Assembly: GCA_016432485.1 (NCBI GenBank)
Contig: CP066691.1
Span: 452,709 to 516,708, forward strand
Direction of reading: 5' to 3'
DNA from: Candidatus Niyogibacteria bacterium
GTDB taxonomy: Bacteria > Patescibacteriota > Minisyncoccia > HO2-45-28
Length of the DNA: 64,000 bases
Position 1 is the stretch's first letter, and every line of letters starts with the position of its first letter. A program made the position numbers and the translations under genes. Below are positions 750 through 63,380 of the stretch, one piece after another. A model generated the notes under the pieces. That model saw only the letters and a list, made by a program, of their open reading frames with translations. It did not search any database and was not told the DNA's origin.

Positions 750-1433
750 TTAGGGTTCTAAATAATCCTTTTGTTCGCCCAATAATTCTTGGTCTCTTTC
801 GCTCCATTTCAGCATTGAATCAATTAGCTCTTCTGGATTTAAAAATTCTTCTAAAGCATGCCTAGAAATTATTAGATCGTCCTTTTTTCCGACAATACCC
901 AACAAACTGGACCACGGATATCTAAGTAATGCCGCTTTTGCACTTAAAACGCGTTTTATTCTTCCCCCTCGCCATTGGGGATGGGTATAATCTAACGCAT
1001 TAAGATGAATATAATTTACAAGGTGCTGAAAATAACGATCGGAATCAACGCGTATTACTTTAGCTCTTCCTTGAAACAAAACGCCCTTTCTTTTATTACG
1101 AAGATTAAAATACTTAACGTACCCGCCGAATATTTTTCTGACAAACTCGGTTGCGCCTTCGGGAGTTCTGCAACGAAAAAGAATGTGCGCGTGGTTATTC
1201 ATTAGAATATAAGCCAAAACCTCAACCAATTTTTCCTTTTCCGGACGTTGAACGTCCGTATTGTTATTAAAATTTCTAAGCTCCGCCGGCTCCCAAGAGT
1301 TAAAGATGCGCATCCCCAGCAAAAATCTTTGAAAATAAGAGTTGCCAGGAAATATAATTCTCCCGTCAACCCCCTTTTGACAAACATGATAAATCTCTTC
1401 TTCCACAAAAATCATATATTTTATATAGTACAC
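750..1433 (-). CDS. IS200/IS605-family TnpA-like HUH tyrosine transposase (REP-associated tyrosine transposase, RAYT-like); real start probably ATG at ~1415
   Basis: HuH motif 'LMNNHAHILF', 'YHV..G' N-term, C-terminal 'RYFQHLVNYIHLNAL' (catalytic Tyr helix) typical of Y1 transposases; flanked by REP hairpins; ORF as given starts at GTG. Confidence 0.6.
   Translation of the reverse strand: MYYIKYMIFVEEEIYHVCQKGVDGRIIFPGNSYFQRFLLGMRIFNSWEPAELRNFNNNTDVQRPEKEKLVEVLAYILMNNHAHILFRCRTPEGATEFVRKIFGGYVKYFNLRNKRKGVLFQGRAKVIRVDSDRYFQHLVNYIHLNALDYTHPQWRGGRIKRVLSAKAALLRYPWSSLLGIVGKKDDLIISRHALEEFLNPEELIDSMLKWSERDQELLGEQKDYLEP
1242..1260. repeat. REP-like palindrome (opposite orientation, ttgaa loop) lying in-frame inside the RAYT ORF (encodes TDVQRP)
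   Basis: cggacgttgaacgtccg; translation of ORF across it gives NTDVQRPEK. Confidence 0.6.
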
Positions 1434-5253: not shown

Positions 5254-5811
5254 TTAGGATAAGTCAAAATGCAATTTAAGGTCGGCGTCCATTGACATTT
5301 TTTCTACGGTCAAAACTCTAACATGCTGCTGAACCTCAAAAAATTCGGCCAAAAAATTTATCTCATTCGAGCACTCGTACGGAAAAACCCACGTACTTTT
5401 TTGCAACTCATAAAATCCTAATTTTTTGAGTTTTTTTCGCAAAGCATCGCGCGCCGTTCTTTTTTTCTCCGGTATGTCAAAAACAACAATGCGCCATTTT
5501 TTGTCCCAACGCACCGGTTTGGCCATCTCGATCTGGTCCGGATTATAGCGCATGGCGAACCTCTTTCCCCTCTCATTAATAACAATTGACACGGTGCCGT
5601 CATCCTCGTCTTTAAAATTAACCAAGCGGTCATACTTAAATTCTCTTAACACCCTTCTTAAGGTGCGGCGGTCAACATCGCGCCATTCTTTAGACAAGTT
5701 CTTTATGATATGCCAGTTGGTTCGTGGCGAGCGCGAAAGCCCCATGGATATTCCGGCCACCAACAACAAAAGTATTTTTTGTTTAGTCGGACTATAATAA
5801 TATTTAGCCAT
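5254..5811 (-). CDS. putative regulator: N-terminal winged-helix-like domain plus C-terminal Cas2/VapD-like (PaaX-C-like) fold
   Basis: C-term 'RIVVFDIPEKKRTARDALRKKLKKLGFYELQKSTWVF' matches the Cas2 beta-alpha pattern; no cas1 or CRISPR array nearby. Confidence 0.4.
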   Translation of the reverse strand: MAKYYYSPTKQKILLLLVAGISMGLSRSPRTNWHIIKNLSKEWRDVDRRTLRRVLREFKYDRLVNFKDEDDGTVSIVINERGKRFAMRYNPDQIEMAKPVRWDKKWRIVVFDIPEKKRTARDALRKKLKKLGFYELQKSTWVFPYECSNEINFLAEFFEVQQHVRVLTVEKMSMDADLKLHFDLS

Positions 5812-46194: not shown

Positions 46195-46539
46195 TTATTC
46201 GGGCATTCTCACCATCACCATCCTTTGTTCGAAAAGCTTCCTGCCGAAACGTCCGTCGGCCTTCAGCTCAATGATATTCAAACCGGAAAATAAAATCAAT
46301 TCCTCTTCAAAATTCCCTTTTTCGTCCGTATAAATCGGGCGTCCGTTCAACTCAAGCCGGGAAATATCCCGACTACGGCCCTTGACTAAAACCCTGGAAT
46401 TATTAAGCGTTACGCCCTCTTCGGGAAAATCAATTGATACGGTCGGGCCGAGCCAAAATCCCTGAAAATTAAAAACAAAATAAATAAAAAAGGCGGTGAG
46501 CAGGAGGCCGAAAATAAAAATCGCGGCAAAACGGCGCAT
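46195..46539 (-). CDS. membrane-anchored hypothetical protein
   Basis: N-terminal TM; no motif. Confidence 0.35.
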   Translation of the reverse strand: MRRFAAIFIFGLLLTAFFIYFVFNFQGFWLGPTVSIDFPEEGVTLNNSRVLVKGRSRDISRLELNGRPIYTDEKGNFEEELILFSGLNIIELKADGRFGRKLFEQRMVMVRMPE

Positions 46540-48842: not shown

Positions 48843-50162
48843 TTATTTACTGTGTTTTAAAACCTCAAGCGCCATATCAAGCGCTTCGTCCTTGAGCGTC
48901 AATCGGTCATCTGTTGCCGGAACATGCGGTTCAACTCCTTTGCCGTGAACTCTGTAACCGGAAACTGGAAAAATGTATTCATAAGTCGTTATATAAGCTT
49001 CCCCTCCGCTTTCCATCCCCCAATTTGACTGCACAAGCCCTTTGCCAAATGTTTTTTCGCCAACAATCTTCGCAAGACCGTAGTCTTTCAAAACCCCCGC
49101 CAAAATTTCAGAAGAGCTCGCCGAATTTCTATTTATCAAAACCGCGATCGGCCCCTCAAATATTACGGGTACGGAATAGTCGGAGTAAAAAGCAATTTCT
49201 TTTTTCCCTCTTTTCTCGTGAAAAAGCATGATCCTTCCCGGAGGGACGAGGCGGTCAAGCACGCCATCGACAGCGTTTTCCAAGCCGCCCGGATTATTCC
49301 TGACATCAATAACAAGCTTTTTCATTCCCTGTTTTTTCAGCTCAAAAACAATGTCTTCAAATCCTTTTGCCGTATCGGGGGAAAAAGCAGTTATCTGAAC
49401 ATAGCCGATATCATTTGTTTTCATCTCGCCCCAGACGGTTTCACGCGCTACGGTTTTTCGCAAAATTTGTAAAACAACCTCCGTGCTGTCGGGCTTTCTA
49501 AACTTAATCCTTACGTTCGTGTTTTCAGAACTTTTTTCAAGATATGTTCCTTTAATAAGGTCCAGCACGTCTTTCGTTTCCATACCCGCGGCTTTTTTCA
49601 GCTCGCCCTTTTGGTTTTGCACGGCAACAATTGACCATCCGCGCTTCACGCCCGCCAAATGCGCTCCGCCATTTTTGAAAACCTGCGTTATGTAAATTCC
49701 CCGCTCACCCACAATACCATAGCGCTTTATCAAAATCTGCCCTTCCTTTTGTATCAAAGTTTCATATTCCGGGTCAGTCTCGGGAAGTTGCTGTCTTTTT
49801 TTCAAATGCGTTTCAAGTTCCTTCAAAAATTCAATCTCGTCTTCGGGATGCGCGGAGAGACCAACTCCTATTCCCACAAACTTCTCTCCTAACCTTTCCA
49901 AGGTGGTTTTTCCCTGCGGAGCAAGGCGGAAAAAGCTAAAACGGTCAAGATTGTCGCGAACGATTTTATTCAAGGACTCCTCAAGCCCCTGGATGATGGC
50001 TTTTTCCTGCTCTGGAGTTAATTTCTTGTAATATTCTTCTTCAATAATGGTCAGGGCTTCCTGAATCCGTTTGCCCGCGTTCTCAAGTTCACCCGCGTAC
50101 CCGATAATTGCCGAGAAAACAAAAATTGAAGCAAGTAAAGACGCAAATATTCTTTTCATCAC
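48843..50162 (-). CDS. ctpA: carboxy-terminal processing protease (S41 family)
   Basis: signal peptide, PDZ, 'LINRNSASSSEILAGVLKD...GEKTFGKGLVQS'. Confidence 0.8.
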   Translation of the reverse strand: MMKRIFASLLASIFVFSAIIGYAGELENAGKRIQEALTIIEEEYYKKLTPEQEKAIIQGLEESLNKIVRDNLDRFSFFRLAPQGKTTLERLGEKFVGIGVGLSAHPEDEIEFLKELETHLKKRQQLPETDPEYETLIQKEGQILIKRYGIVGERGIYITQVFKNGGAHLAGVKRGWSIVAVQNQKGELKKAAGMETKDVLDLIKGTYLEKSSENTNVRIKFRKPDSTEVVLQILRKTVARETVWGEMKTNDIGYVQITAFSPDTAKGFEDIVFELKKQGMKKLVIDVRNNPGGLENAVDGVLDRLVPPGRIMLFHEKRGKKEIAFYSDYSVPVIFEGPIAVLINRNSASSSEILAGVLKDYGLAKIVGEKTFGKGLVQSNWGMESGGEAYITTYEYIFPVSGYRVHGKGVEPHVPATDDRLTLKDEALDMALEVLKHSK

Positions 50163-50412
50163 AAATCCTCCTCAATTTCAAAAAACCTGTTTTTAAGATA
50201 ACACCTGAAACCAAGCCGCGCCTCTTTACAAAAGGAATAAAATGGTTTTTAAAAATTTCAAGAGAAAGCACCCTCCCGAAATTTTGGAAAAATTAGGGTT
50301 TTGAGATCACAAAATCCTCCCCGCGAACGGAGGGGTTTTTAATATTTACTTAAAAACGCCCGTGTGTTATTTTCAGCCCAGAGATGGCTTTCCTTGAAAA
50401 TATAAGCAGGGG

Positions 50413-51246
50413 GTGGAAATGCTCAAAAGCAATGAATTTCCAAACGGACAAAAGGAGCATCTTACCTATTACAAGGCGCTGTTTGGTTATATCGTCATCG
50501 GGACCATTTTTATTTTTCTTGTAAGCGTCGGCATCGCGCAAACACTTCTTGCCTGGAACACCTCGGTATTTGTCAGCACCATGCTAATGTTCGCGGTAAT
50601 GGTTTTTTATTTCAGAAAAACCTTGAAAAGATCGGGGTTTATGGGTCTCGAAAAAGACGCTTTGGACTTGGTAAGAAAAAAGTTGGCGGAGACGGAAACG
50701 GAAAAACTGCCCGATTGCCATGAACTTATTTTTGAAACCGACGCTTTTTTTGAAAGATATTCCGCGACGGAATTTAACGGCACTTCTGTCGTCGACTATT
50801 TCAGGGACTTAGGAAAAAGAATCAAGGCGGTCGGCGCGCTTGCGGGCAAACACAAAAAAGAACCCGTGCTCACAGATGAATTAAAATTCTGTTTCTATGC
50901 CAATATGGAACGGCTTATCAAACCAACGGTCAATGGCGCTAGAAAACTTCTTCTTTTCGGTTTTCTGGGAACGGTCACGGGAATTCTGTTAATCGGTGTG
51001 GGCATGCAATTCGGGGAAAGCGCGCAACAGGCTCAGCTCATAGCGAAAGAACTGATCGGCGGACTTGGGGTGGCGGCAATAACAACCATTTTAGGCCTTG
51101 TCGGAAACTTGTTCTTGAGTTCTATTTACGAGCAGCATGAAGACATAAGAGATCGGATTCTCGCGGAACTTGCGCGCCTGACAAGTATCTACGGATTGGA
51201 TCTGTGCTCGCCTCCCGAACCAGAGGAGGAAATGGCGAATGGATAA
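50413..51246 (+). CDS. MotA/TolQ/ExbB-family proton channel-like protein
   Basis: C-terminal 'FGFLGTVTGILLIGVGMQF...LGVAAITTILGLVGNLF' matches family signature helices. Confidence 0.5.
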   Translation: MEMLKSNEFPNGQKEHLTYYKALFGYIVIGTIFIFLVSVGIAQTLLAWNTSVFVSTMLMFAVMVFYFRKTLKRSGFMGLEKDALDLVRKKLAETETEKLPDCHELIFETDAFFERYSATEFNGTSVVDYFRDLGKRIKAVGALAGKHKKEPVLTDELKFCFYANMERLIKPTVNGARKLLLFGFLGTVTGILLIGVGMQFGESAQQAQLIAKELIGGLGVAAITTILGLVGNLFLSSIYEQHEDIRDRILAELARLTSIYGLDLCSPPEPEEEMANG

Positions 51247-51895
51247 ATGGAGAATTTTTTCAAGAAGAGAATCCGACCATGCTATCGTCCAGGGAGACCT
51301 GACGCTTCTTATAGCCATTATTCCTTTTATGCTTGTGTTTTTGTTTCTAATTCACCTAAACGACGCCTCAAGCAAAGACCAAGACAAAAATCCCTTTGAA
51401 GTCACGGTTGAATGGGACGGAAAATCGCCGGTTGATATTGATACCTGGACTTGGTGCACCAACCCCTCGACGGAACTTTGGGAAATTGTCAGTTACCAAA
51501 ACAGAAAGGGCAAATTTCTTCTTCTGGACCAGGACGACAGAGGTTACAAAGACGAAAGTCCTCTTGACGACAAAAATAAAGAGAAAGTAAAATCGCTAGG
51601 TAACCGTCTGCCGGCTGCCCTTTGCGGGGTAAATCTGCATGTCTACGGCACAAACGGCGGAACTCTGCCCATTGAAGTAACTGTGTCTGCAGTCCTTTTC
51701 AAGGGGCACGAGACCGGAAAACAAATTGTGCTTTTGGACCAGAAAAAATTTACCCTAAGCAGAGTTGGAGAAGAAATTACGACAACCAGTTTTGAAATTG
51801 ACACGGAAGGCAAATTAATGGTAGGAAGTAATAAGACGACAATCCAGATGCGTTGCGCCAGTTCTTCTGGTCGCAACTGTACTCCTGCCTGGTGA
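51239..51895 (+). CDS. ExbD/TolR/MotB-like single-TM partner protein with extended periplasmic domain
   Basis: N-term 'RRESDHAIVQGDLTLLIAIIPFMLVFLFLI' resembles ExbD/TolR TM segment; 4-bp overlap with preceding gene. Confidence 0.4.
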   Translation: MDKWRIFSRRESDHAIVQGDLTLLIAIIPFMLVFLFLIHLNDASSKDQDKNPFEVTVEWDGKSPVDIDTWTWCTNPSTELWEIVSYQNRKGKFLLLDQDDRGYKDESPLDDKNKEKVKSLGNRLPAALCGVNLHVYGTNGGTLPIEVTVSAVLFKGHETGKQIVLLDQKKFTLSRVGEEITTTSFEIDTEGKLMVGSNKTTIQMRCASSSGRNCTPAW

Positions 51896-51905
51896 GGGAC
51901 GGAAA

Positions 51906-52628
51906 ATGGACGCACCGCTCTTCGGCGTGCTAAAAACTACTTTCAGAATTGTTTTTTATTCAGAGCCATGGTTTGAATGGTTGGTGCCTATTTTGACGAC
52001 TCTTGTAATGTTGTACTGGCTCTTTATAATTCTGCACCGGACACATGCTTCAAGAAATTTTAAAGTTTCCATGGCGATCTTATCTCTGCCGATCTCTTTC
52101 ATGCTGTTAAACATACCTAATTTCTATAAATATATGAACGCGGGCGCGCCAGACAAAAACTGCCCGGAAATCAACATCAATCCGTTAACCAAAGAAATTG
52201 AACCGATTAAATACGATTATTTAGCACAGCATGTGGTGCCGGGTCCGGTAGAATCGGGATTCGCCGACTTGTTTCTTAAACAGCACGAAATCTTTGGGCA
52301 AAGTTTGAACGTCCAAAACTCTCATGTTTGCCGTCTCCCTTACGATGAGCGAACAAGAATGCTCCTGCAAAATTTGCAAGAAGCAAAAAGACTTCAGGGG
52401 GAGGCGGCTAAAAGAGCCGGCGTGCCTGTCGAATCGGCCTCGGAATTCGGAAACATTCGGATTACTCTGCCGGGTTCTGCAGAAAGCAGAGCGAAAATGG
52501 ATTCTGCTTTACGCAAAAAGGGCGACAAAGAACAAAAGGGTGAACGAGATCGTGATGAAAGTTTCGGTCGCGCCGAATTCAAGGCGCCAAAGACAAATCT
52601 TGTCCCAAAGACGGAAACGGGCCGGTGA
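51906..52628 (+). CDS. membrane protein, hypothetical (third gene of MotA/ExbD-like operon)
   Basis: 3 hydrophobic helices then charged C-terminal tail. Confidence 0.35.
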   Translation: MDAPLFGVLKTTFRIVFYSEPWFEWLVPILTTLVMLYWLFIILHRTHASRNFKVSMAILSLPISFMLLNIPNFYKYMNAGAPDKNCPEININPLTKEIEPIKYDYLAQHVVPGPVESGFADLFLKQHEIFGQSLNVQNSHVCRLPYDERTRMLLQNLQEAKRLQGEAAKRAGVPVESASEFGNIRITLPGSAESRAKMDSALRKKGDKEQKGERDRDESFGRAEFKAPKTNLVPKTETGR

Positions 52629-52728
52629 AATATCCGGCCTTTTAATTTGACAGATCGGCTATCTTTATAAAAATAGCCCCGCCATCCGTTATATTCCTAT
52701 AACGATTAGCGGGACTGGATTCAAAAAA

Positions 52729-53565
52729 TTATTTTGGAGGAATAAAAAATCTTTTTATTTCATCCGAACACTTTGCGCATTTATCCATAATTTCGCGCCC
52801 AATCGCGTTAATTTTCAGCATTCCGCCGATGCGGCTAAGGTATCTGCCGAATGGGTCCATAAGCACATACTGCGCCAGACCAACCAACTCAAATTCTCCG
52901 TCCTTTATAGCCACAACCGGCCCGCCGCTGTCGCCCGGATATATGCCGTTAGAGATACGCGCGGTATCTTGATTTTCAGATGCGGTCAAAGATGACACAA
53001 TGCCCTCGCGGACGTTAACGCCGCTTGAAGCCGGATCGCCTACGATATAAATAAAATTCCCCAGGCTCAGTTTATTGCTATTTCCGATGGAATAAGGAAA
53101 AAACGGGACTTTTAAAAACGGGGGTATTTCAAAAAGAGCCACTTCAACAATCCCATCCGCGCTCACGTAAAGCGGGTCTAATTTATACTCTCGGCCACCG
53201 ACCATAATAAAAGTTTCTTCGGATATTTTTTTCGCGGGGATTATGGTCGGGCCGAACGGCGTCATAACCTGCAAAGAAGGCGGGTGCTTCACCACGTGAG
53301 TCAGGGTCAGCAACAGCCGCCCCTCATTTATGGCCAACCCCCGTCCGTCCAAGATGCGGATTATTTTTTTGGAAACATTGGGAGGCACATCTTCGGTTTG
53401 TTCAAAAACAGTTTTGGTTCTTATTCTGGCAAGGGCCGGAATAATCTTTTCGAGCTTGCTTCCCAAATCAGGAATCAAAGAATTATTATTGTCGTACGGC
53501 TCGGCTCGAGCCAGAAAACCGCCCAAAAACACCAAAATAAAGGCCATTAAAAGAATCTTCCTCAT
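52729..53565 (-). CDS. secreted trypsin-like serine protease (S1 family)
   Basis: signal peptide; 'GDSGGPVV' catalytic Ser motif. Confidence 0.7.
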   Translation of the reverse strand: MRKILLMAFILVFLGGFLARAEPYDNNNSLIPDLGSKLEKIIPALARIRTKTVFEQTEDVPPNVSKKIIRILDGRGLAINEGRLLLTLTHVVKHPPSLQVMTPFGPTIIPAKKISEETFIMVGGREYKLDPLYVSADGIVEVALFEIPPFLKVPFFPYSIGNSNKLSLGNFIYIVGDPASSGVNVREGIVSSLTASENQDTARISNGIYPGDSGGPVVAIKDGEFELVGLAQYVLMDPFGRYLSRIGGMLKINAIGREIMDKCAKCSDEIKRFFIPPK

Positions 53566-53927: not shown

Positions 53928-56030
<2,103 letters not shown>

Positions 56031-56038
56031 AAATCAAA

Positions 56039-56183
56039 TGAAATTTAGTTTAACATACGAATATTGACGTGCGAAAGGGGGTCGGGGAAAACTGTAGTTT
56101 TCCCCGTAGAGGAAAACAGCGACCCCGCAGTTGCGGGGGAGCGCTAGAAACCGAGAGGTTTCTAGGGAGGCCTTTGGCCGACG
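56039..56183. mobile_element. ~145-bp GC-rich element of three consecutive perfect hairpins inserted at the fusA start, flanked by ~71-bp direct duplication of fusA 5' end (55968-56038 and 56184-56254)
   Basis: hairpins ggggaaaac/gttttcccc, ccccgc/gcgggg, ctagaaacc/ggtttctag; duplicated 5'UTR+21 codons. Confidence 0.5.
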
Positions 56184-56244
56184 CGTCAATATGAGCGATT
56201 ATTCCGATATCTCTTGTCTTTTCAATAGGAAAATCTCTTGGCAT
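56050..56244 (-). pseudogene. duplicated fusA 5' fragment (first 21 codons [21 protein letters not shown] then unrelated sequence)
   Basis: identical to fusA N-terminus; diverges at insertion boundary. Confidence 0.6.
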
Positions 56245-56258
56245 AAATCAAACGAGTA

Positions 56259-57068
56259 TTAATTTATTTCTTTCTTTTTATCTTCTTTTATTTTCTGGTA
56301 CGCCCTTTCAAAATCTTCATGGGCTTTACGACGCTCCTTGGAGCCAGGTTCAGAAAGTCGCAAAAGCTGACGCCTCAATCCGTGCCATGCCTGTTCTTTC
56401 AAATATTTTTCGCCTTTCTCGGCTAACGCTTTTTCGTCTTCCGGCAATTCTTCCGAAGAAATTCCGCGGGACTTTACTTCTTTATCCGCGCTTGCGTCTG
56501 CGCCTTTCGTTTGCTCTTTTTCTTTGGCGCGCCGTCCCATCACCACATCCTTCTCTTCCACAAAAGGGTAAATCTCGGTGGGGTCAATGCCATTATGACG
56601 ATAATAATCTGCCTCCAATTCATACGCGCGCGCGATAAACGGCGCTATCTCAAACATTTCCTTCTTCGCCCCACCCTCTTCAATCATAAATTTCATAGTT
56701 AAGGCAAACCATTGCCGAAAAATCTCCGGCTGTTCAAACGGCGTCTCCTTTTCAGGTTCTGCGGATGCTGTTAAATTTTCAACTTTTTGCTGAAAATCGC
56801 GAAATCGGTTGTTAAATTCCTCGTCGTTATCCGATTCTCTCAAGACAGGGTGATTAAGCTCTCCATCAGCGGCGGTAAAACCAACTACAATCATTTCTTG
56901 AAAGGTTTTCTCCCTTAAATTCTTTTCAAGTTTCTCATCGCTCCAAAAACGTTCAGCTTCTTTAGGGTCTTCGTGGAGTTTACGTAAATATTCACGTCTC
57001 AACGGCGGAATTATGGATTCATCCCACGGAACGGGTTTTTCAAATCGCGGTTCTTGTTCAATTCCCAT
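56259..57068 (-). CDS. highly charged (E/K-rich) hypothetical protein inserted between rpsG and fusA
   Basis: 269-aa ORF in conserved str operon position where no gene is expected; no motif. Confidence 0.45.
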   Translation of the reverse strand: MGIEQEPRFEKPVPWDESIIPPLRREYLRKLHEDPKEAERFWSDEKLEKNLREKTFQEMIVVGFTAADGELNHPVLRESDNDEEFNNRFRDFQQKVENLTASAEPEKETPFEQPEIFRQWFALTMKFMIEEGGAKKEMFEIAPFIARAYELEADYYRHNGIDPTEIYPFVEEKDVVMGRRAKEKEQTKGADASADKEVKSRGISSEELPEDEKALAEKGEKYLKEQAWHGLRRQLLRLSEPGSKERRKAHEDFERAYQKIKEDKKKEIN

Positions 57069-61877: not shown

Positions 61878-63380
61878 ATGATAACAAAAAGGCAAAAACA
61901 AACCCTCGACTTTATAACCGACTATCAGGAGCAGAAAGGATATGCCCCCTCTCTTGACGAGATACGCAAGAAATTAAAACTCTCGTCAGTTTCAACAGCC
62001 CATTTTCATGTTTCTAAACTTCGCGATTTGGGACTTTTATCCAAAGAAGAGAACAAACCGCGCTCTATTGAAGCGTTCGGTCGCGAAACAATGGTAAAAA
62101 TTCCACTTTTAGGGGCTATTGCTGCCGGTCAACCAATAGAGGCAATACAGAACAAAGAAATGATTGCCATTCCTAAAAGTAAGATCCCTTCTTCGTCAGA
62201 AGTTTACGCTCTCCGCGTGGTCGGGAGCAGTATGATTGACGAAAACATAAACGATGGCGATGTGGTTTTGGTGCGCCAGCAGGAAGTCGCGGAAAATGGC
62301 CAGCGGGTAGTCGCTTTGATAGACAATTACGAAGCGACGCTAAAAAAATTTTATAAAGAGCGCGGACATATCCGCCTACAACCTGCGAACAAAACTATGG
62401 AGCCGCTTATTTTTAGAAATGGGCGAGATGTTTCAATTCAAGGAATTGTGCTTGATGTTATTCGTGATGGGGGTTTTATGTCTCCAGTAGAAATTTATCC
62501 AGACGCAAAACTTCTTAATCGAGAAAGAAAAGTCAAAAATAGAGAAGCGAAAGAAAGGGCGCGGGGTGGTACAAAATTTCAAAAAGAAGCTTTTGCGGTT
62601 GCGCAAGCAAACGGCATTGAGAAGTTTACAGACAAAATTATATGTGGCGACAGCGGAGAAGTTTTGCGTAAAATCCCAACTGGTTCGATTGATATCATCA
62701 TTACATCCCCACCGTATAATTTTGGCCTAGAATATAAAGACGATAAGAAAAATGATGCGATTCATTGGGACGAGTATTTTAAGAAGATAGATACAATTTG
62801 GAAAGAGTGTGCGCGCGTTCTAAAACCCGGAGGACGGCTCTGCCTTAACGTGCAGCCGTTGTTTTCAGATTACATTCCGACACATCATTTGATGTCAAAA
62901 CAACTACTTAATCATGGGCTGATCTGGAAGGGAGAAATTTTGTGGGAGAAAAATAACTATAACTGCAAGTATACAGCATGGGGCAGTTGGAAAAGCCCCA
63001 GTATGCCATATCTAAAATACACGTGGGAATTTGTTGAAGTTTTCTCGAAAGATACACACAAAAAGACTGGCGACTCATCAAAAGCCGATATAACTGGTGA
63101 TGAATTCAAAAAATGGGTTTATGCAAAATGGTCCATCGCTCCCGAACGAAACATGAAAGAATACGATCATCCTGCAATGTTTCCAAAAGAGTTAGCAACG
63201 CGACTAATGAAACTTTTTAGCTATCAAGACGATATTGTGCTTGATCCGTTCAACGGCGCGGGGACAACCACGCTTTGCGCCGCAGAAACAGGCAGAAAAT
63301 ATATCGGAATAGATATCTCACCAAAATACTGCAAAATCTCCGAGAAACGAATAAAGGAAATCCCCGCGAAGTTATTTTAG
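61878..63380 (+). CDS. fusion protein: full-length LexA repressor (wHTH + S24 autopeptidase) joined to a beta-class DNA amino-methyltransferase (N4-C/N6-A)
   Basis: LexA: 'TKRQKQTLDFITDY...LDEIRKKL', 'LLGAIAAGQPIEA', 'LRVVGSSMIDENINDGDVVLV', 'ATLKKFYKE'; MTase: motif IV 'IIITSPPYN' preceding motif I 'VLDPFNGAGTT'. Confidence 0.7.
   Translation: MITKRQKQTLDFITDYQEQKGYAPSLDEIRKKLKLSSVSTAHFHVSKLRDLGLLSKEENKPRSIEAFGRETMVKIPLLGAIAAGQPIEAIQNKEMIAIPKSKIPSSSEVYALRVVGSSMIDENINDGDVVLVRQQEVAENGQRVVALIDNYEATLKKFYKERGHIRLQPANKTMEPLIFRNGRDVSIQGIVLDVIRDGGFMSPVEIYPDAKLLNRERKVKNREAKERARGGTKFQKEAFAVAQANGIEKFTDKIICGDSGEVLRKIPTGSIDIIITSPPYNFGLEYKDDKKNDAIHWDEYFKKIDTIWKECARVLKPGGRLCLNVQPLFSDYIPTHHLMSKQLLNHGLIWKGEILWEKNNYNCKYTAWGSWKSPSMPYLKYTWEFVEVFSKDTHKKTGDSSKADITGDEFKKWVYAKWSIAPERNMKEYDHPAMFPKELATRLMKLFSYQDDIVLDPFNGAGTTTLCAAETGRKYIGIDISPKYCKISEKRIKEIPAKLF

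What the first reader, a model, noticed from the sequence alone, without database searches (positions are those of the whole stretch)
50413..52628. MotA/ExbB-like proton channel + ExbD/TolR-like partner + extra membrane protein operon in an organism with no outer-membrane context
The C-terminal helices of ORF 50413..51246 ('FGFLGTVTGILLIGVGMQF...LGVAAITTILGLVGNLF') match the MotA/TolQ/ExbB channel signature. The next ORF overlaps it by 4 bp. That ORF has the ExbD/TolR-type single TM 'DLTLLIAIIPFMLVFLFLI' and an unusually long (~170 aa) extracytoplasmic domain. A third 3-TM protein follows. In a monoderm-like CPR cell, with no TonB receptors, flagellar genes or Tol-Pal nearby, what this stator-like ion-driven motor energises is unclear. 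A type IV pilus-like or surface apparatus is one speculation.
Basis: partly seen in the sequence, partly recalled or inferred. Interest (0 to 1): 0.55.

Follow-up and report, generated by a model that had tools for sequence, protein, structure and literature searches.

The report
Uncharacterised ExbB-like three-gene motor cassette
The three genes are a real, tightly coupled operon that looks like a previously undescribed relative of the proton-driven Ton/Tol/flagellar-stator motors, and the same cassette turns up in Proteobacteria and many phages, so it is not a peculiarity of this tiny CPR bacterium.

Summary
The three ORFs exist as described, in a Candidatus Niyogibacteria (CPR) genome. Corrections: ORF1 and ORF2 overlap by 8 nt, not 4, and ORF3 has 2 TM helices, not 3.

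- **ORF1** is a remote MotA/TolQ/ExbB-family protein. It scores below the Pfam cut-off on its own. Profile-profile links to syntenic homologues that pass Pfam, conservation of both ExbB "threonine ring" positions, and ExbB/TolQ/ZorA as the top 34 fold matches (individually non-significant, low-confidence model) support the assignment.
- **ORF2** is not ExbD/TolR. It has a MotB/ZorB-like N-terminal helix with a conserved Asp (76/82 relatives). Its extracytoplasmic domain is a DUF2135-like (YfaP-like) β-rich domain with six invariant residues, four of them acidic.
- **ORF3** is a 2-TM protein with an extracytoplasmic domain carrying two invariant cysteines.

The A–B–C cassette is conserved in about 314 protein clusters. 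These come from Alphaproteobacterial and other proteobacterial chromosomes, cultured Rhizobium phages and about 100 viral contigs, with no conserved neighbours. The exception is secreted serine proteases in CPR and 20% of phage loci.

Best reading: a new family of 5:2-type ion-driven motors with a novel axle output domain. What it acts on is unknown. I found no paper describing it.

The parts
50413..51246 (+). A subunit (ORF1). It is 277 aa from the GTG, and the likely start is the ATG at 50419 (275 aa). It is a remote MotA/TolQ/ExbB-family protein with four hydrophobic segments (aa 23-41, 50-68, 176-199, 209-235), a cytoplasmic insert of about 105 aa and a C-terminal tail of about 40 aa.
   Evidence: - Pfam MotA_ExbB: 19.0 bits, E 1.3e-3, below the gathering score.
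- hhalign against 44 syntenic proteobacterial homologues: probability 95%, E 3.8e-8. Nine of ten of those homologues tested pass the Pfam gathering score.
- Foldseek: the top 34 PDB hits are all ExbB, TolQ or ZorA, from a low-confidence model with E values of 0.05-0.4.
- Hydropathy.
50971..50973 (+). Codon for Thr187 of ORF1, in the motif G-F-L-G-T-V-T-G. It is the counterpart of ExbB T148 and TolQ T145, the first half of the threonine ring around the axle Asp.
   Evidence: hhalign against E. coli ExbB aligns T187 with T148. The position is T in 56 of 57 A subunits collected.
51085..51087 (+). Codon for Thr225 of ORF1, in the motif G-V-A-A-I-T-T-I-L-G. It is the counterpart of ExbB T181 and TolQ T178.
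   Evidence: One search gives the alignment. The position is T in 55 of 57 A subunits and S in the other 2.
51239..51895 (+). B subunit (ORF2), 218 aa. It has a short cytoplasmic N-terminus, one TM helix (aa 21-39) preceded by Asp20, an 'ND/NP' exit motif, and a 179-aa extracytoplasmic region. That region holds a DUF2135-like β-rich domain (aa ~51-185).
   Evidence: - No Pfam, NCBIfam or PADLOC hit.
- Exhaustive HMM search: 314 cluster representatives at E<=1e-3, almost all matching most of the query's length.
- Family profile against PDB: the top three hits are ZorB/MotB-like N-termini, at non-significant E values of 0.13-0.74.
- hhalign of the family against E. coli YfaP (DUF2135): probability 92%, E 5.8e-7.
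- W59, D66, D68, D99, G102 and E115 are invariant in 82 of 82 members.
51296..51298 (+). Codon for Asp20 of ORF2, the putative ion-binding residue at the cytoplasmic end of the TM helix.
   Evidence: Invariant in 5 of 5 close relatives. Across the family it is D in 76 of 82, N in 3 and E in 1. It aligns with the Asp of the ZorB and MotB-like chains 8qyd_F, 8vvn_B and 8vvi_A.
51906..52628 (+). C subunit (ORF3), 240 aa. It has two TM helices (aa 25-43 and 52-70) joined by a short positively charged loop. An extracytoplasmic region of about 170 aa follows, with invariant Cys86 and Cys142, the motifs GxPDxxC, C-R-L-P-Y-D and TLPG, and a charged tail.
   Evidence: - No Pfam, NCBIfam or PADLOC hit.
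- Conserved in position in every cassette examined.
- Homologous to the third genes of two non-CPR-type cassettes: hhalign probability 96%, E 6.4e-9.
- Invariant columns.
- Homology to the proteobacterial-type third gene is not significant.
52619..52640 (+). Terminator-like GC-rich hairpin followed by a T-rich run. It overlaps the ORF3 stop codon and probably marks the end of the operon.
   Evidence: Consensus scan. This is a pattern match only.
48843..50162 (-). Secreted or anchored S41 (C-terminal processing) peptidase, divergently transcribed from the cassette. It is a possible functional neighbour, and that link is tentative.
   Evidence: - Pfam Peptidase_S41, E 5.7e-45.
- Adjacent to the cassette in all four Niyogibacteria lineages.
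- A different S41 paralogue (22% identity) lies directly downstream of the cassette in an unrelated GC-58% contig.
52729..53565 (-). Secreted trypsin-like (S1) serine peptidase, convergent with the cassette. It is a possible functional neighbour, and that link is tentative.
   Evidence: - Pfam Trypsin_2, E 6.7e-14.
- Present next to the cassette in all Niyogibacteria loci.
- Secreted trypsin-like proteases lie within 4 kb of the cassette in 16 of 80 viral loci, against 0 of 75 proteobacterial loci.

Best explanation
The operon encodes a previously uncharacterised family of ion-driven '5:2-type' membrane motors related to ExbBD, TolQR, MotAB and ZorAB.

- **ORF1** would form the pentameric ion-channel ring. 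It keeps both threonines that surround the axle aspartate in ExbB and TolQ.
- **ORF2** would form the dimeric axle. Its single helix with Asp20 sits inside the ring. Instead of a TolR/ExbD or OmpA-like peptidoglycan-binding domain, it displays a DUF2135-like β-rich domain outside the membrane, with six invariant residues, four of them acidic. This is probably a metal- or ligand-binding site.
- **ORF3** is a 2-TM protein with a probably disulfide-bonded extracytoplasmic domain. It occupies the gene position of TolA or TonB, so it is the candidate peripheral partner or output.

Proton (or Na+) flow through the ORF1-ORF2 interface would drive relative rotation or conformational cycling. That would do mechanical work on something at the outer face of the cytoplasmic membrane.

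Shown:
- The homology of ORF1.
- The conserved Asp and Thr signature.
- The domain identity of ORF2.
- The strict three-gene conservation.

Inferred:
- The 5:2 stoichiometry.
- Ion coupling.
- Which part is stationary.
- The target.
For: Operon structure:
- ORF1 and ORF2 overlap by 8 nt, the ORF2-ORF3 gap is 10 nt, and a terminator-like hairpin follows ORF3.

ORF1:
- The weak direct Pfam and PADLOC hits fall on the right segment.
- hhalign to 44 syntenic homologues gives probability 95%, E 3.8e-8.
- Nine of ten of those homologues tested exceed the Pfam MotA_ExbB gathering score. One further relative carries a precomputed MotA_ExbB annotation.
- That homologue profile hits solved MotA (8gqy, E 1e-3) and a ZorA-type chain (8vvn_C, E 0.02).
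- In Foldseek against PDB, the top 34 hits are all ExbB, TolQ or ZorA, with query-normalised TM-score up to 0.56. The E values (0.05-0.4) are not individually significant.
- T187 and T225 align with ExbB T148 and T181. They are conserved in 56 of 57 and 55 of 57 A subunits.

ORF2:
- Asp20 is conserved in 76 of 82 family members.
- The best PDB sequence matches of the family profile are ZorB/MotB-type N-termini aligned on that Asp, at non-significant E values of 0.13-0.74.
- The ectodomain matches DUF2135 (E. coli YfaP): hhalign probability 92%, E 5.8e-7.

Cassette conservation (A-B-C order):
- 76 of 80 (A) and 79 of 80 (C) proteobacterial loci.
- 75 of 80 (A) and 74 of 80 (C) viral loci.
- Rhizobium phages.
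- Every extra metagenomic context examined.

Precedent: TolQ-like rings paired with non-TolR axle proteins that carry the Asp (TPH-vWA) were described in PMC12204202.
Against: - ORF1 alone fails the Pfam gathering threshold.
- Both AlphaFold models are low confidence (pLDDT 52 and 43), because the usable alignments had only 3 and 5 close sequences. The fold evidence is therefore soft.
- The ExbB/TolQ Glu176 position is Val in ORF1.
- Six of 82 ORF2 relatives lack the Asp (N in 3, E in 1).
- No complex model or stoichiometry could be computed.
- No target or phenotype is known.
- Phage A subunits are only 113-190 aa, so a large cytoplasmic torque-generating domain is not a conserved feature.
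Confidence: 0.6

Rival explanations
1. The cassette is a gated ion leak rather than a force-generating motor. The ORF1/ORF2 channel would be kept plugged and would open when the DUF2135-like ectodomain or ORF3 senses an envelope event such as phage attack, superinfection or wall damage. Opening would depolarise the membrane, giving a Zorya-like defence or a phage-encoded superinfection-exclusion or lysis-timing device.
For: - The cassette is self-contained, with no conserved neighbours in 75 proteobacterial loci.
- It is patchily distributed and often phage-borne.
- Phage A subunits are minimal, with little cytoplasmic mass.
- The only defence-library hits are to ZorA, and they are weak.
Against: - There is no effector such as ZorC/D, and no long ZorA tail.
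- The neighbours of chromosomal copies are housekeeping or metabolic genes, not defence islands or mobile elements.
- In Niyogibacteria the cassette sits in a stably syntenic core region.
- There is no significant PADLOC hit.
Confidence: 0.2
2. The cassette is the membrane-energised partner of secreted serine proteases. It would use ion flow to activate, position or release an extracytoplasmic S1 or S41 peptidase. Alternatively, ORF3 or ORF2 would be the protease substrate in a regulated-proteolysis signalling step.
For: - In all four Niyogibacteria lineages, S41 and trypsin-like peptidase genes flank the cassette.
- A different S41 paralogue lies directly downstream in an unrelated contig.
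- A secreted trypsin-like protease (phrog_9683) is the commonest immediate neighbour in viral loci. It occurs within 4 kb in 16 of 80 loci, mostly 0.3-1 kb upstream on the same strand.
- DUF2135's name-giving protein, YfaP, is encoded in the E. coli operon that also holds yfaS. From my own knowledge, yfaS encodes an alpha-2-macroglobulin-type protein.
Against: - None of 75 proteobacterial chromosomal cassettes has such a protease within 3.5 kb, and 80% of viral loci lack one. A protease therefore cannot be an obligatory component.
- The CPR and phage proteases are not detectably orthologous.
- The whole Niyogibacteria neighbourhood is syntenic, so adjacency there carries little weight.
Confidence: 0.1
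3. The locus is a degenerate or divergent orthologue of a known Ton, Tol or flagellar stator system (ExbB-ExbD-TonB or TolQ-TolR-TolA) that has simply drifted in a fast-evolving CPR genome.
For: The gene order A-B-C mirrors tolQ-tolR-tolA. ExbB and TolQ are the best fold matches.
Against: - The ORF2 ectodomain is DUF2135-like, not ExbD/TolR.
- ORF3 has 2 TM helices, no conserved His and no TonB or TolA C-terminal domain.
- The same distinctive architecture is conserved in hundreds of proteobacterial and phage loci. By general knowledge, proteobacterial genomes also carry canonical Ton and Tol systems. The cassette is therefore a separate family, not a drifted copy.
Confidence: 0.03
4. The similarity is compositional, arising from glycine- and threonine-rich TM helices, and the three proteins are an unrelated set of small membrane proteins without ion-channel function.
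For: The direct hits of ORF1 to Pfam, PADLOC and single E. coli sequences are weak. The structure models are poor.
Against: - The profile-profile E value is 3.8e-8.
- Syntenic homologues score above the Pfam gathering score.
- Functional residues are conserved position by position: the GxxGT and TTxxG motifs and the Asp.
- The fold hits are coherent.
Confidence: 0.05

Closest known systems
ExbB-ExbD(-TonB) and TolQ-TolR(-TolA) motors of diderm bacteria
   Same: - The A subunit gives the best fold matches.
- It shares the G-x-x-G-T and T-x-x-G motifs that carry the threonine ring.
- The B subunit has a single TM helix with an Asp near its cytoplasmic end.
- The gene order is A-B-C, with a third membrane protein.
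   Different: - The A subunit has four hydrophobic segments (a MotA-like topology) rather than three.
- It lacks the ExbB E176 equivalent.
- The B ectodomain is DUF2135-like, not the ExbD/TolR fold.
- The C protein has two TM helices, no SHLS/His motif and no TonB or TolA C-terminal domain.
- The cassette also occurs in a CPR lineage presumed to lack an outer membrane, and in phages.
TolQ-like rings paired with 'trans-pore-helix-vWA' proteins (Williams-Jones et al. 2025, PMC12204202)
   Same: The design principle is the same. A TolQ/ExbB-like gene has no tolR/exbD next to it. Its partner is a bitopic protein whose TM helix carries the conserved Asp and whose outer domain is an unrelated globular module.
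   Different: Here the outer module is DUF2135-like rather than vWA. There is one B gene rather than a heterologous pair. A conserved third 2-TM gene is present. The distribution includes phages and CPR.
Zorya ZorA-ZorB anti-phage motor
   Same: The ORF1 segment hits ZorA models weakly. The N-terminus of the ORF2 family aligns best with the ZorB chains 8qyd_F and 8vvn_B. Both are self-contained cassettes in variable genomic contexts.
   Different: There is no long ZorA cytoplasmic tail. There is no peptidoglycan-binding domain in B. There are no ZorC, ZorD or ZorE effectors. The chromosomal copies are not in defence islands.
Flagellar stator MotA-MotB / PomAB
   Same: The A subunit has a four-TM topology with a cytoplasmic insert between TM2 and TM3. 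The B subunit has an Asp at the start of its TM helix. The A and B genes overlap.
   Different: No flagellar genes were found. The MotA alignment is poor. There is no OmpA-like domain, and only 2 of 82 members give a weak MotB_plug hit. In the scheme of PMC12505986, this cassette would fall among the 'generic ion transporters' rather than the flagellar group.
DUF2135 (Pfam PF09906; E. coli YfaP)
   Same: The ORF2 ectodomain aligns with YfaP residues 141-253. It shares the motifs W...D-x-D-L-x-V and G-x-Y-x-V.
   Different: DUF2135 has no known function. YfaP was not examined for membrane anchoring or for a neighbouring motor gene. ORF2 itself does not reach any Pfam threshold.

Membership tests
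MotA/TolQ/ExbB proton channel family (Pfam PF01618) | Whole-protein score at or above the Pfam gathering score (22.9 bits) | tested here: not met
   ORF1 scores 19.0 bits, E 1.3e-3. Syntenic homologues do pass: 9 of 10 proteobacterial ones at 31-46 bits, the L098 partner by precomputed annotation, and the phage RHph_N3_19 partner at 27.3 bits.
MotA/TolQ/ExbB proton channel family (Pfam PF01618) | Two conserved threonines in the last two TM helices that ring the partner's Asp (ExbB T148/T181, TolQ T145/T178) | tested here: met
   T187 and T225 align to these positions. They are conserved in 56 of 57 and 55 of 57 A subunits of the cassette.
MotA/TolQ/ExbB proton channel family (Pfam PF01618) | ExbB/TolQ/MotA-like helical fold | tested here: inconclusive
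   The top 34 Foldseek PDB hits are all ExbB, TolQ or ZorA, with query-normalised TM-score up to 0.56 and probability up to 1.0. However, the E values are 0.05-0.4 and the model pLDDT is only 52.
MotA/TolQ/ExbB proton channel family (Pfam PF01618) | Adjacent, co-translated partner gene encoding a bitopic protein with a TM Asp | tested here: met
   There is an 8-nt overlap with ORF2. D20 is conserved.
MotA/TolQ/ExbB proton channel family (Pfam PF01618) | Pentamer around a dimer (5:2), and ion-driven rotation | not testable with these tools
ExbD/TolR (biopolymer transport protein, Pfam PF02472) | N-terminal TM helix with a conserved Asp | tested here: met
   D20 sits at the start of TM 21-39. 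It is D in 76 of 82 family members.
ExbD/TolR (biopolymer transport protein, Pfam PF02472) | ExbD/TolR periplasmic domain, detectable by profile | tested here: not met
   There is no ExbD hit for ORF2 even at E<=1, and none among 82 relatives at E<=0.1. The ectodomain matches DUF2135 instead.
MotB / ZorB type stator B subunit | MotB-like N-terminal TM and plug segment | tested here: inconclusive
   The family profile's best PDB matches are ZorB and MotB-like N-termini, but at E 0.13-0.74. MotB_plug hits 2 of 82 members, best E 0.004.
MotB / ZorB type stator B subunit | C-terminal OmpA-like peptidoglycan-binding domain | tested here: not met
   No OmpA hit for ORF2 or its relatives.
Zorya anti-phage system | ZorA with a long C-terminal tail (500-700 aa protein), plus ZorC/ZorD or ZorE effector genes | tested here: not met
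   ORF1 is 277 aa. The PADLOC hits cover only profile positions ~56-118 of ZorA models and are weak. NCBIfam ZorA2 scores 10.8 bits against a cut-off of 700. ORF2 and ORF3 have no PADLOC hit.
TonB / TolA force transducers (for ORF3) | Single N-terminal TM with an SHLS/His motif, a Pro-rich or helical spacer, and a TonB_C or TolA_C domain | tested here: not met
   ORF3 has two TM segments. The only His near TM1 (H44) is S or Y in relatives. There is no Pfam hit, and the PDB profile search with the proteobacterial third-gene family (A7) found nothing.
DUF2135 (Pfam PF09906) | Profile match to the DUF2135 domain | tested here: inconclusive
   ORF2 itself has no hit. Three of 82 relatives have weak hits, best E 9e-4. 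The family profile against E. coli YfaP gives hhalign probability 92%, E 5.8e-7, over 110 columns. This indicates remote homology, not membership by Pfam's criterion.

The most novel reading that the evidence does not exclude
This is a distinct, undescribed class of minimal ion-driven motor carried by phages as well as by bacteria. It would be the first phage-encoded 5:2-type motor family, and the first non-flagellar one operating in a cell presumed to lack an outer membrane (CPR). Its DUF2135-like axle domain and 2-TM partner would apply proton-motive energy to an extracytoplasmic process, such as handling secreted serine proteases or remodelling the wall or surface during infection or episymbiosis.
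Probability: 0.25. Interest if true: 0.8.

Novelty: new variant of a known kind. Interest (0 to 1): 0.62.

Why it matters
Ion-driven 5:2 motors power flagella, nutrient import, envelope integrity, gliding, secretion and phage defence. Each newly characterised family has revealed a new way of spending membrane energy outside the cytoplasm.

This cassette has several features that make it worth study:
- It keeps the catalytic signature (the threonine ring and the Asp) but replaces the axle's outer domain with a DUF2135-like module, and it adds a new third component.
- It is small. Phage A subunits are only about 113-190 aa.
- It occurs in cultured, tractable systems: Rhizobium phages, Azospirillum and Mesorhizobium.
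- It exists in a CPR bacterium presumed to lack an outer membrane.

It therefore offers a compact model for how these motors couple to different outputs. It would also assign a first functional context to DUF2135. Finally, it may reveal what phages gain from bringing their own motor.

Tried and rejected
- **Direct library scans of the three proteins.** Pfam, NCBIfam, PADLOC and PHROGs gave only sub-threshold hits for ORF1 and nothing for ORF2 or ORF3.
- **Direct sequence search of ORF1 and ORF2 against PDB.** Nothing relevant came up.
- **Word-indexed homologue searches.** They found only 3-5 close Niyogibacteria-type relatives, even with a profile at E<=10. The alignments allowed for structure prediction were therefore too shallow, and both AlphaFold models are low confidence.
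- **Fold search of the ORF2 model.** The result is meaningless: transthyretin at rmsd 16 Å. I discarded it.
- **hhalign of ORF1 against single E. coli ExbB, TolQ and MotA sequences.** The register is correct for ExbB and TolQ, but the result is not significant.
- **Homology between the CPR-type and proteobacterial-type third genes.** It could not be established. hhalign probability is only 2-16%, covering a shared R-x-x-LP-[YW]-[DS] stretch, and HMM iteration stalled.
- **Metagenome scan with the CPR-type ORF2.** It returned only 3 loci of an already known lineage.
- **Cluster look-up.** It gave no organism names.
- **Search for conserved neighbours of proteobacterial cassettes.** None was found.
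- **Literature searches.** No paper on this cassette was found using terms for stator families, CPR plus ExbB, DUF2135, YfaP and TolQ-like/trans-pore helix.
- **Type IV pilus, TonB and flagellar readings.** I rejected these because none of the 27 window ORFs scanned against Pfam is such a gene.


Full report
**1. What is at the locus**

Three + strand ORFs occupy 50413-51246 (277 aa), 51239-51895 (218 aa) and 51906-52628 (240 aa).
- The DNA shows an ATG at 50419 behind a G-rich ribosome-binding site, which matches the 275-aa NCBI protein.
- The gap before ORF3 is 10 nt.
- A terminator-like hairpin overlaps the ORF3 stop codon.
- Exact matches name the organism as a Candidatus Niyogibacteria MAG, a member of the CPR/Parcubacteria.
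- Hydropathy gives four hydrophobic segments in ORF1 (23-41, 50-68, 176-199, 209-235), one in ORF2 (21-39) and two in ORF3 (25-43, 52-70). So ORF3 has 2 TM helices, not 3.

**2. ORF1 is a remote MotA/TolQ/ExbB relative**

On its own ORF1 is sub-threshold:
- Pfam MotA_ExbB scores 19.0 bits against a gathering score of 22.9 (E 1.3e-3, aa 181-248).
- PADLOC ZorA2 gives E 5.6e-4 on the same segment.
- hhalign to single E. coli ExbB and TolQ sequences finds the right register but is not significant.

Four independent lines raise this to a confident superfamily assignment.
- (i) The genes upstream of distant ORF2 relatives in Proteobacteria form a family (alignment A5) that matches ORF1 at hhalign probability 95%, E 3.8e-8. 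Nine of ten members tested exceed the Pfam gathering score, at 31-46 bits.
- (ii) That family hits solved MotA (8gqy) and a ZorA-type chain (8vvn_C).
- (iii) Even the low-confidence AlphaFold model (pLDDT 52) retrieves ExbB, TolQ or ZorA as its top 34 PDB matches. Query-normalised TM-score reaches 0.56. The E values (0.05-0.4) are not individually significant.
- (iv) The two threonines that ring the axle aspartate in ExbB (T148, T181) align with ORF1 T187 and T225. These are T in 56 of 57 and 55 of 57 A subunits gathered from CPR, proteobacterial, metagenomic and phage cassettes, within conserved GxxGTxxG and GxxxAxxTTxxG motifs.

ORF1 also differs from ExbB and TolQ. It has an extra N-terminal hairpin, which gives a MotA-like 4-TM topology. 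The ExbB E176 position is Val. The loop between the last two helices is longer.

**3. ORF2 is not ExbD/TolR**

ORF2 has no hit in Pfam, NCBIfam or PADLOC.
- An exhaustive profile search found 314 cluster representatives (E<=1e-3). Among the best 150 listed, all are 172-265 aa and almost all match most of the query's length.
- In an 82-sequence alignment, the Asp just before the TM helix (D20) is D in 76 members, N in 3 and E in 1.
- W59, D66, D68, D99, G102 and E115 of the ectodomain are invariant in 82 of 82 members.
- The family profile's three best PDB sequence matches are the N-termini of ZorB and MotB-like chains (8qyd_F, 8vvn_B, 8vvi_A), aligned on that Asp. The E values (0.13-0.74) are not significant by themselves.
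- The ectodomain is homologous to DUF2135. hhalign of the family against E. coli YfaP gives probability 92%, E 5.8e-7, over 110 columns. Weak direct Pfam DUF2135 hits occur in 3 of 82 members.

ORF2 is therefore an 'Asp-bearing trans-pore helix plus DUF2135-like β-rich domain' protein. It is a functional analogue of ExbD, TolR and MotB at the membrane, but not a member of any of those families.

**4. ORF3**

ORF3 has no library hit.
- The positively charged TM1-TM2 loop places the ~170-aa C-terminal region outside the cell.
- Two cysteines (C86, C142) and the motifs GxPDxxC, CRLPYD and TLPG are invariant across eight relatives.
- ORF3 is homologous to the third genes of two other cassette types: hhalign probability 96%, E 6.4e-9.
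- Similarity to the shorter proteobacterial or phage third gene (motifs GRPKP and EPRAYxLPW) is only suggestive.
- It lacks the defining TonB and TolA features.

**5. The cassette is widespread and self-contained**

A genome scan with one proteobacterial subgroup found 185 loci. Most are Alphaproteobacteria, including cultured Meinhardsimonia, Mesorhizobium, Virgifigura and Benzoatithermus.
- Of the 80 loci kept, 76 have the A gene immediately upstream and 79 have the third gene immediately downstream.
- Azospirillum chromids carry two matching places each.
- Every additional metagenomic context examined shows the same order.
- No neighbouring gene family recurs: the maximum is 5 of 75 loci. 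The neighbours are ordinary housekeeping or metabolic genes, not defence or mobile-element genes.

The cassette is also phage-borne.
- 28 Rhizobium and Sinorhizobium phage genomes encode it. In the two inspected (RHph_Y68, RHph_N3_19), the A genes hit Pfam MotA_ExbB, one of them above the gathering score.
- 98 IMG/VR contigs encode relatives. Of the 80 kept (GC 29-71%), 75 have A and 74 have C.
- Their neighbours are typical phage replication, recombination and packaging genes.
- Phage A subunits are only about 113-190 aa.

The CPR-type clade is small. It comprises four Niyogibacteria lineages plus one GC-58% relative. This is a family whose function is unlikely to depend on an outer membrane at all.

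**6. A recurring but non-universal neighbour: secreted serine proteases**

- In all Niyogibacteria loci, an S41 peptidase lies divergently upstream and a trypsin-like peptidase lies convergently downstream. However, the whole region is syntenic, so this adjacency is weak evidence.
- In the GC-58% relative, a different S41 paralogue (22% identity) sits directly downstream on the same strand, in otherwise different surroundings.
- In viral contigs, the commonest immediate neighbour is a secreted trypsin-like protease (phrog_9683). It is present within 4 kb in 16 of 80 loci, usually 0.3-1 kb upstream.
- None of 75 proteobacterial chromosomal loci has one.

I treat this as a lead, not a component.

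**7. Mechanism**

The most likely mechanism, by analogy with solved ExbBD, TolQR, MotAB and ZorAB complexes, has four elements:
- an ORF1 pentamer around an ORF2 dimer;
- ion binding and release at Asp20 within the Thr187/Thr225 ring, driving relative rotation;
- the DUF2135-like domains, whose four invariant acidic residues suggest a metal- or ligand-binding site, either anchoring the axle to an extracytoplasmic structure or gripping a substrate;
- ORF3 as a peripheral partner in the TolA/TonB gene position.

The homology, the signature residues and the synteny are shown. The stoichiometry, the ion coupling and the target are inferred.

The rival readings are a gated ion leak for defence or exclusion, a protease-coupled module, a drifted Ton/Tol system, and chance similarity. 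They are weighed in the Rival explanations section.

**8. Comparison with the literature**

- The closest published concept is the TolQ-like ring paired with trans-pore-helix-vWA proteins lacking TolR (PMC12204202).
- Another relevant framework is the heterogeneous 'generic ion transporter' relatives of MotAB (PMC12505986).
- Searches for DUF2135, YfaP, CPR plus ExbB and related terms found no description of this cassette.

I therefore rate it a new variant (a new family) of a known kind of machine. Interest is moderate to high, because tractable phage and rhizobial members exist and because it gives DUF2135 a first functional context.

Noticed in passing
window 55969-56052 and 56183-56266: An 84-nt direct repeat (94% identity) duplicates the 5' end and leader of fusA (EF-G, 53928-56030, - strand). 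The upstream copy opens a 64-aa ORF (56050-56244) that starts with the same 21 residues as EF-G. Relative to other Niyogibacteria loci, this genome also has an extra 269-aa gene with no Pfam hit (56259-57068) between rpsG and fusA, so the repeat may mark an insertion.
   Followed up: partly
window 61878-63380 (+): A 500-aa ORF fuses a complete LexA (LexA_DNA_bind + Peptidase_S24) to an N6/N4 DNA methyltransferase domain. This is an unusual architecture.
   Followed up: no
L101 (Rhizobium phage RHph_Y68, MN988486.1 105372-106860) and L102 (RHph_N3_19, MN988527.1 31650-33026): Cultured Rhizobium phages carry a miniature version of the same three-gene cassette among their early and middle genes. 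The A subunits are only 113-148 aa and still hit Pfam MotA_ExbB. All three genes are annotated 'hypothetical protein'.
   Followed up: partly
Viral loci L115, L130, L135, L137, L142, L144, L147, L148, L152, L154-L158, L160, L170: A secreted trypsin-like serine protease (phrog_9683; motifs TAAHV and GQSGAPV) lies within 4 kb of the cassette in 16 of 80 viral loci, mostly just upstream on the same strand. No such protease is found near 75 proteobacterial chromosomal copies.
   Followed up: partly
L069:3914-4405, L151:2864-3235 and relatives: A small secreted protein (shared stretch ...G(S/R)TWT(I/L)...) lies immediately upstream of the cassette in three proteobacterial loci (including Mesorhizobium L069) and in three viral loci. 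It forms its own small cluster in each set.
   Followed up: no
Azospirillum chromids/megaplasmids, e.g. NZ_CP012915.1 986024-986602: Each of seven Azospirillum replicons (1.75-2.05 Mb) holds two places matching the ORF2-family protein, at 50-51% identity to the proteobacterial query. These are possible paralogous cassettes in a genetically tractable genus.
   Followed up: no
window 46195-46539 (-): A 114-aa membrane-anchored protein with a Glucodextran_B-like β-sandwich domain sits between recA and ftsK. It is conserved there in all related Niyogibacteria loci.
   Followed up: no
window 50315-50334: A GC-rich hairpin followed by a T-run lies in the divergent intergenic region between the S41 peptidase gene and ORF1, and it is readable on both strands. 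Its role there, whether regulatory or a relic terminator, is unknown.
   Followed up: no
L052 (CAYWKE010000007.1): A contig labelled 'uncultured Candidatus Saccharibacteria' carries a proteobacterial-type cassette (54% identity to the alphaproteobacterial query), with a truncated-looking A gene that has no Pfam hit. This could be horizontal transfer into another CPR lineage or a binning error.
   Followed up: no
window 750-1433 (-) and 5254-5811 (-): An IS200-like Y1 transposase and a PaaX-like protein (Cas2-like middle domain) lie near the start of the window.
   Followed up: no
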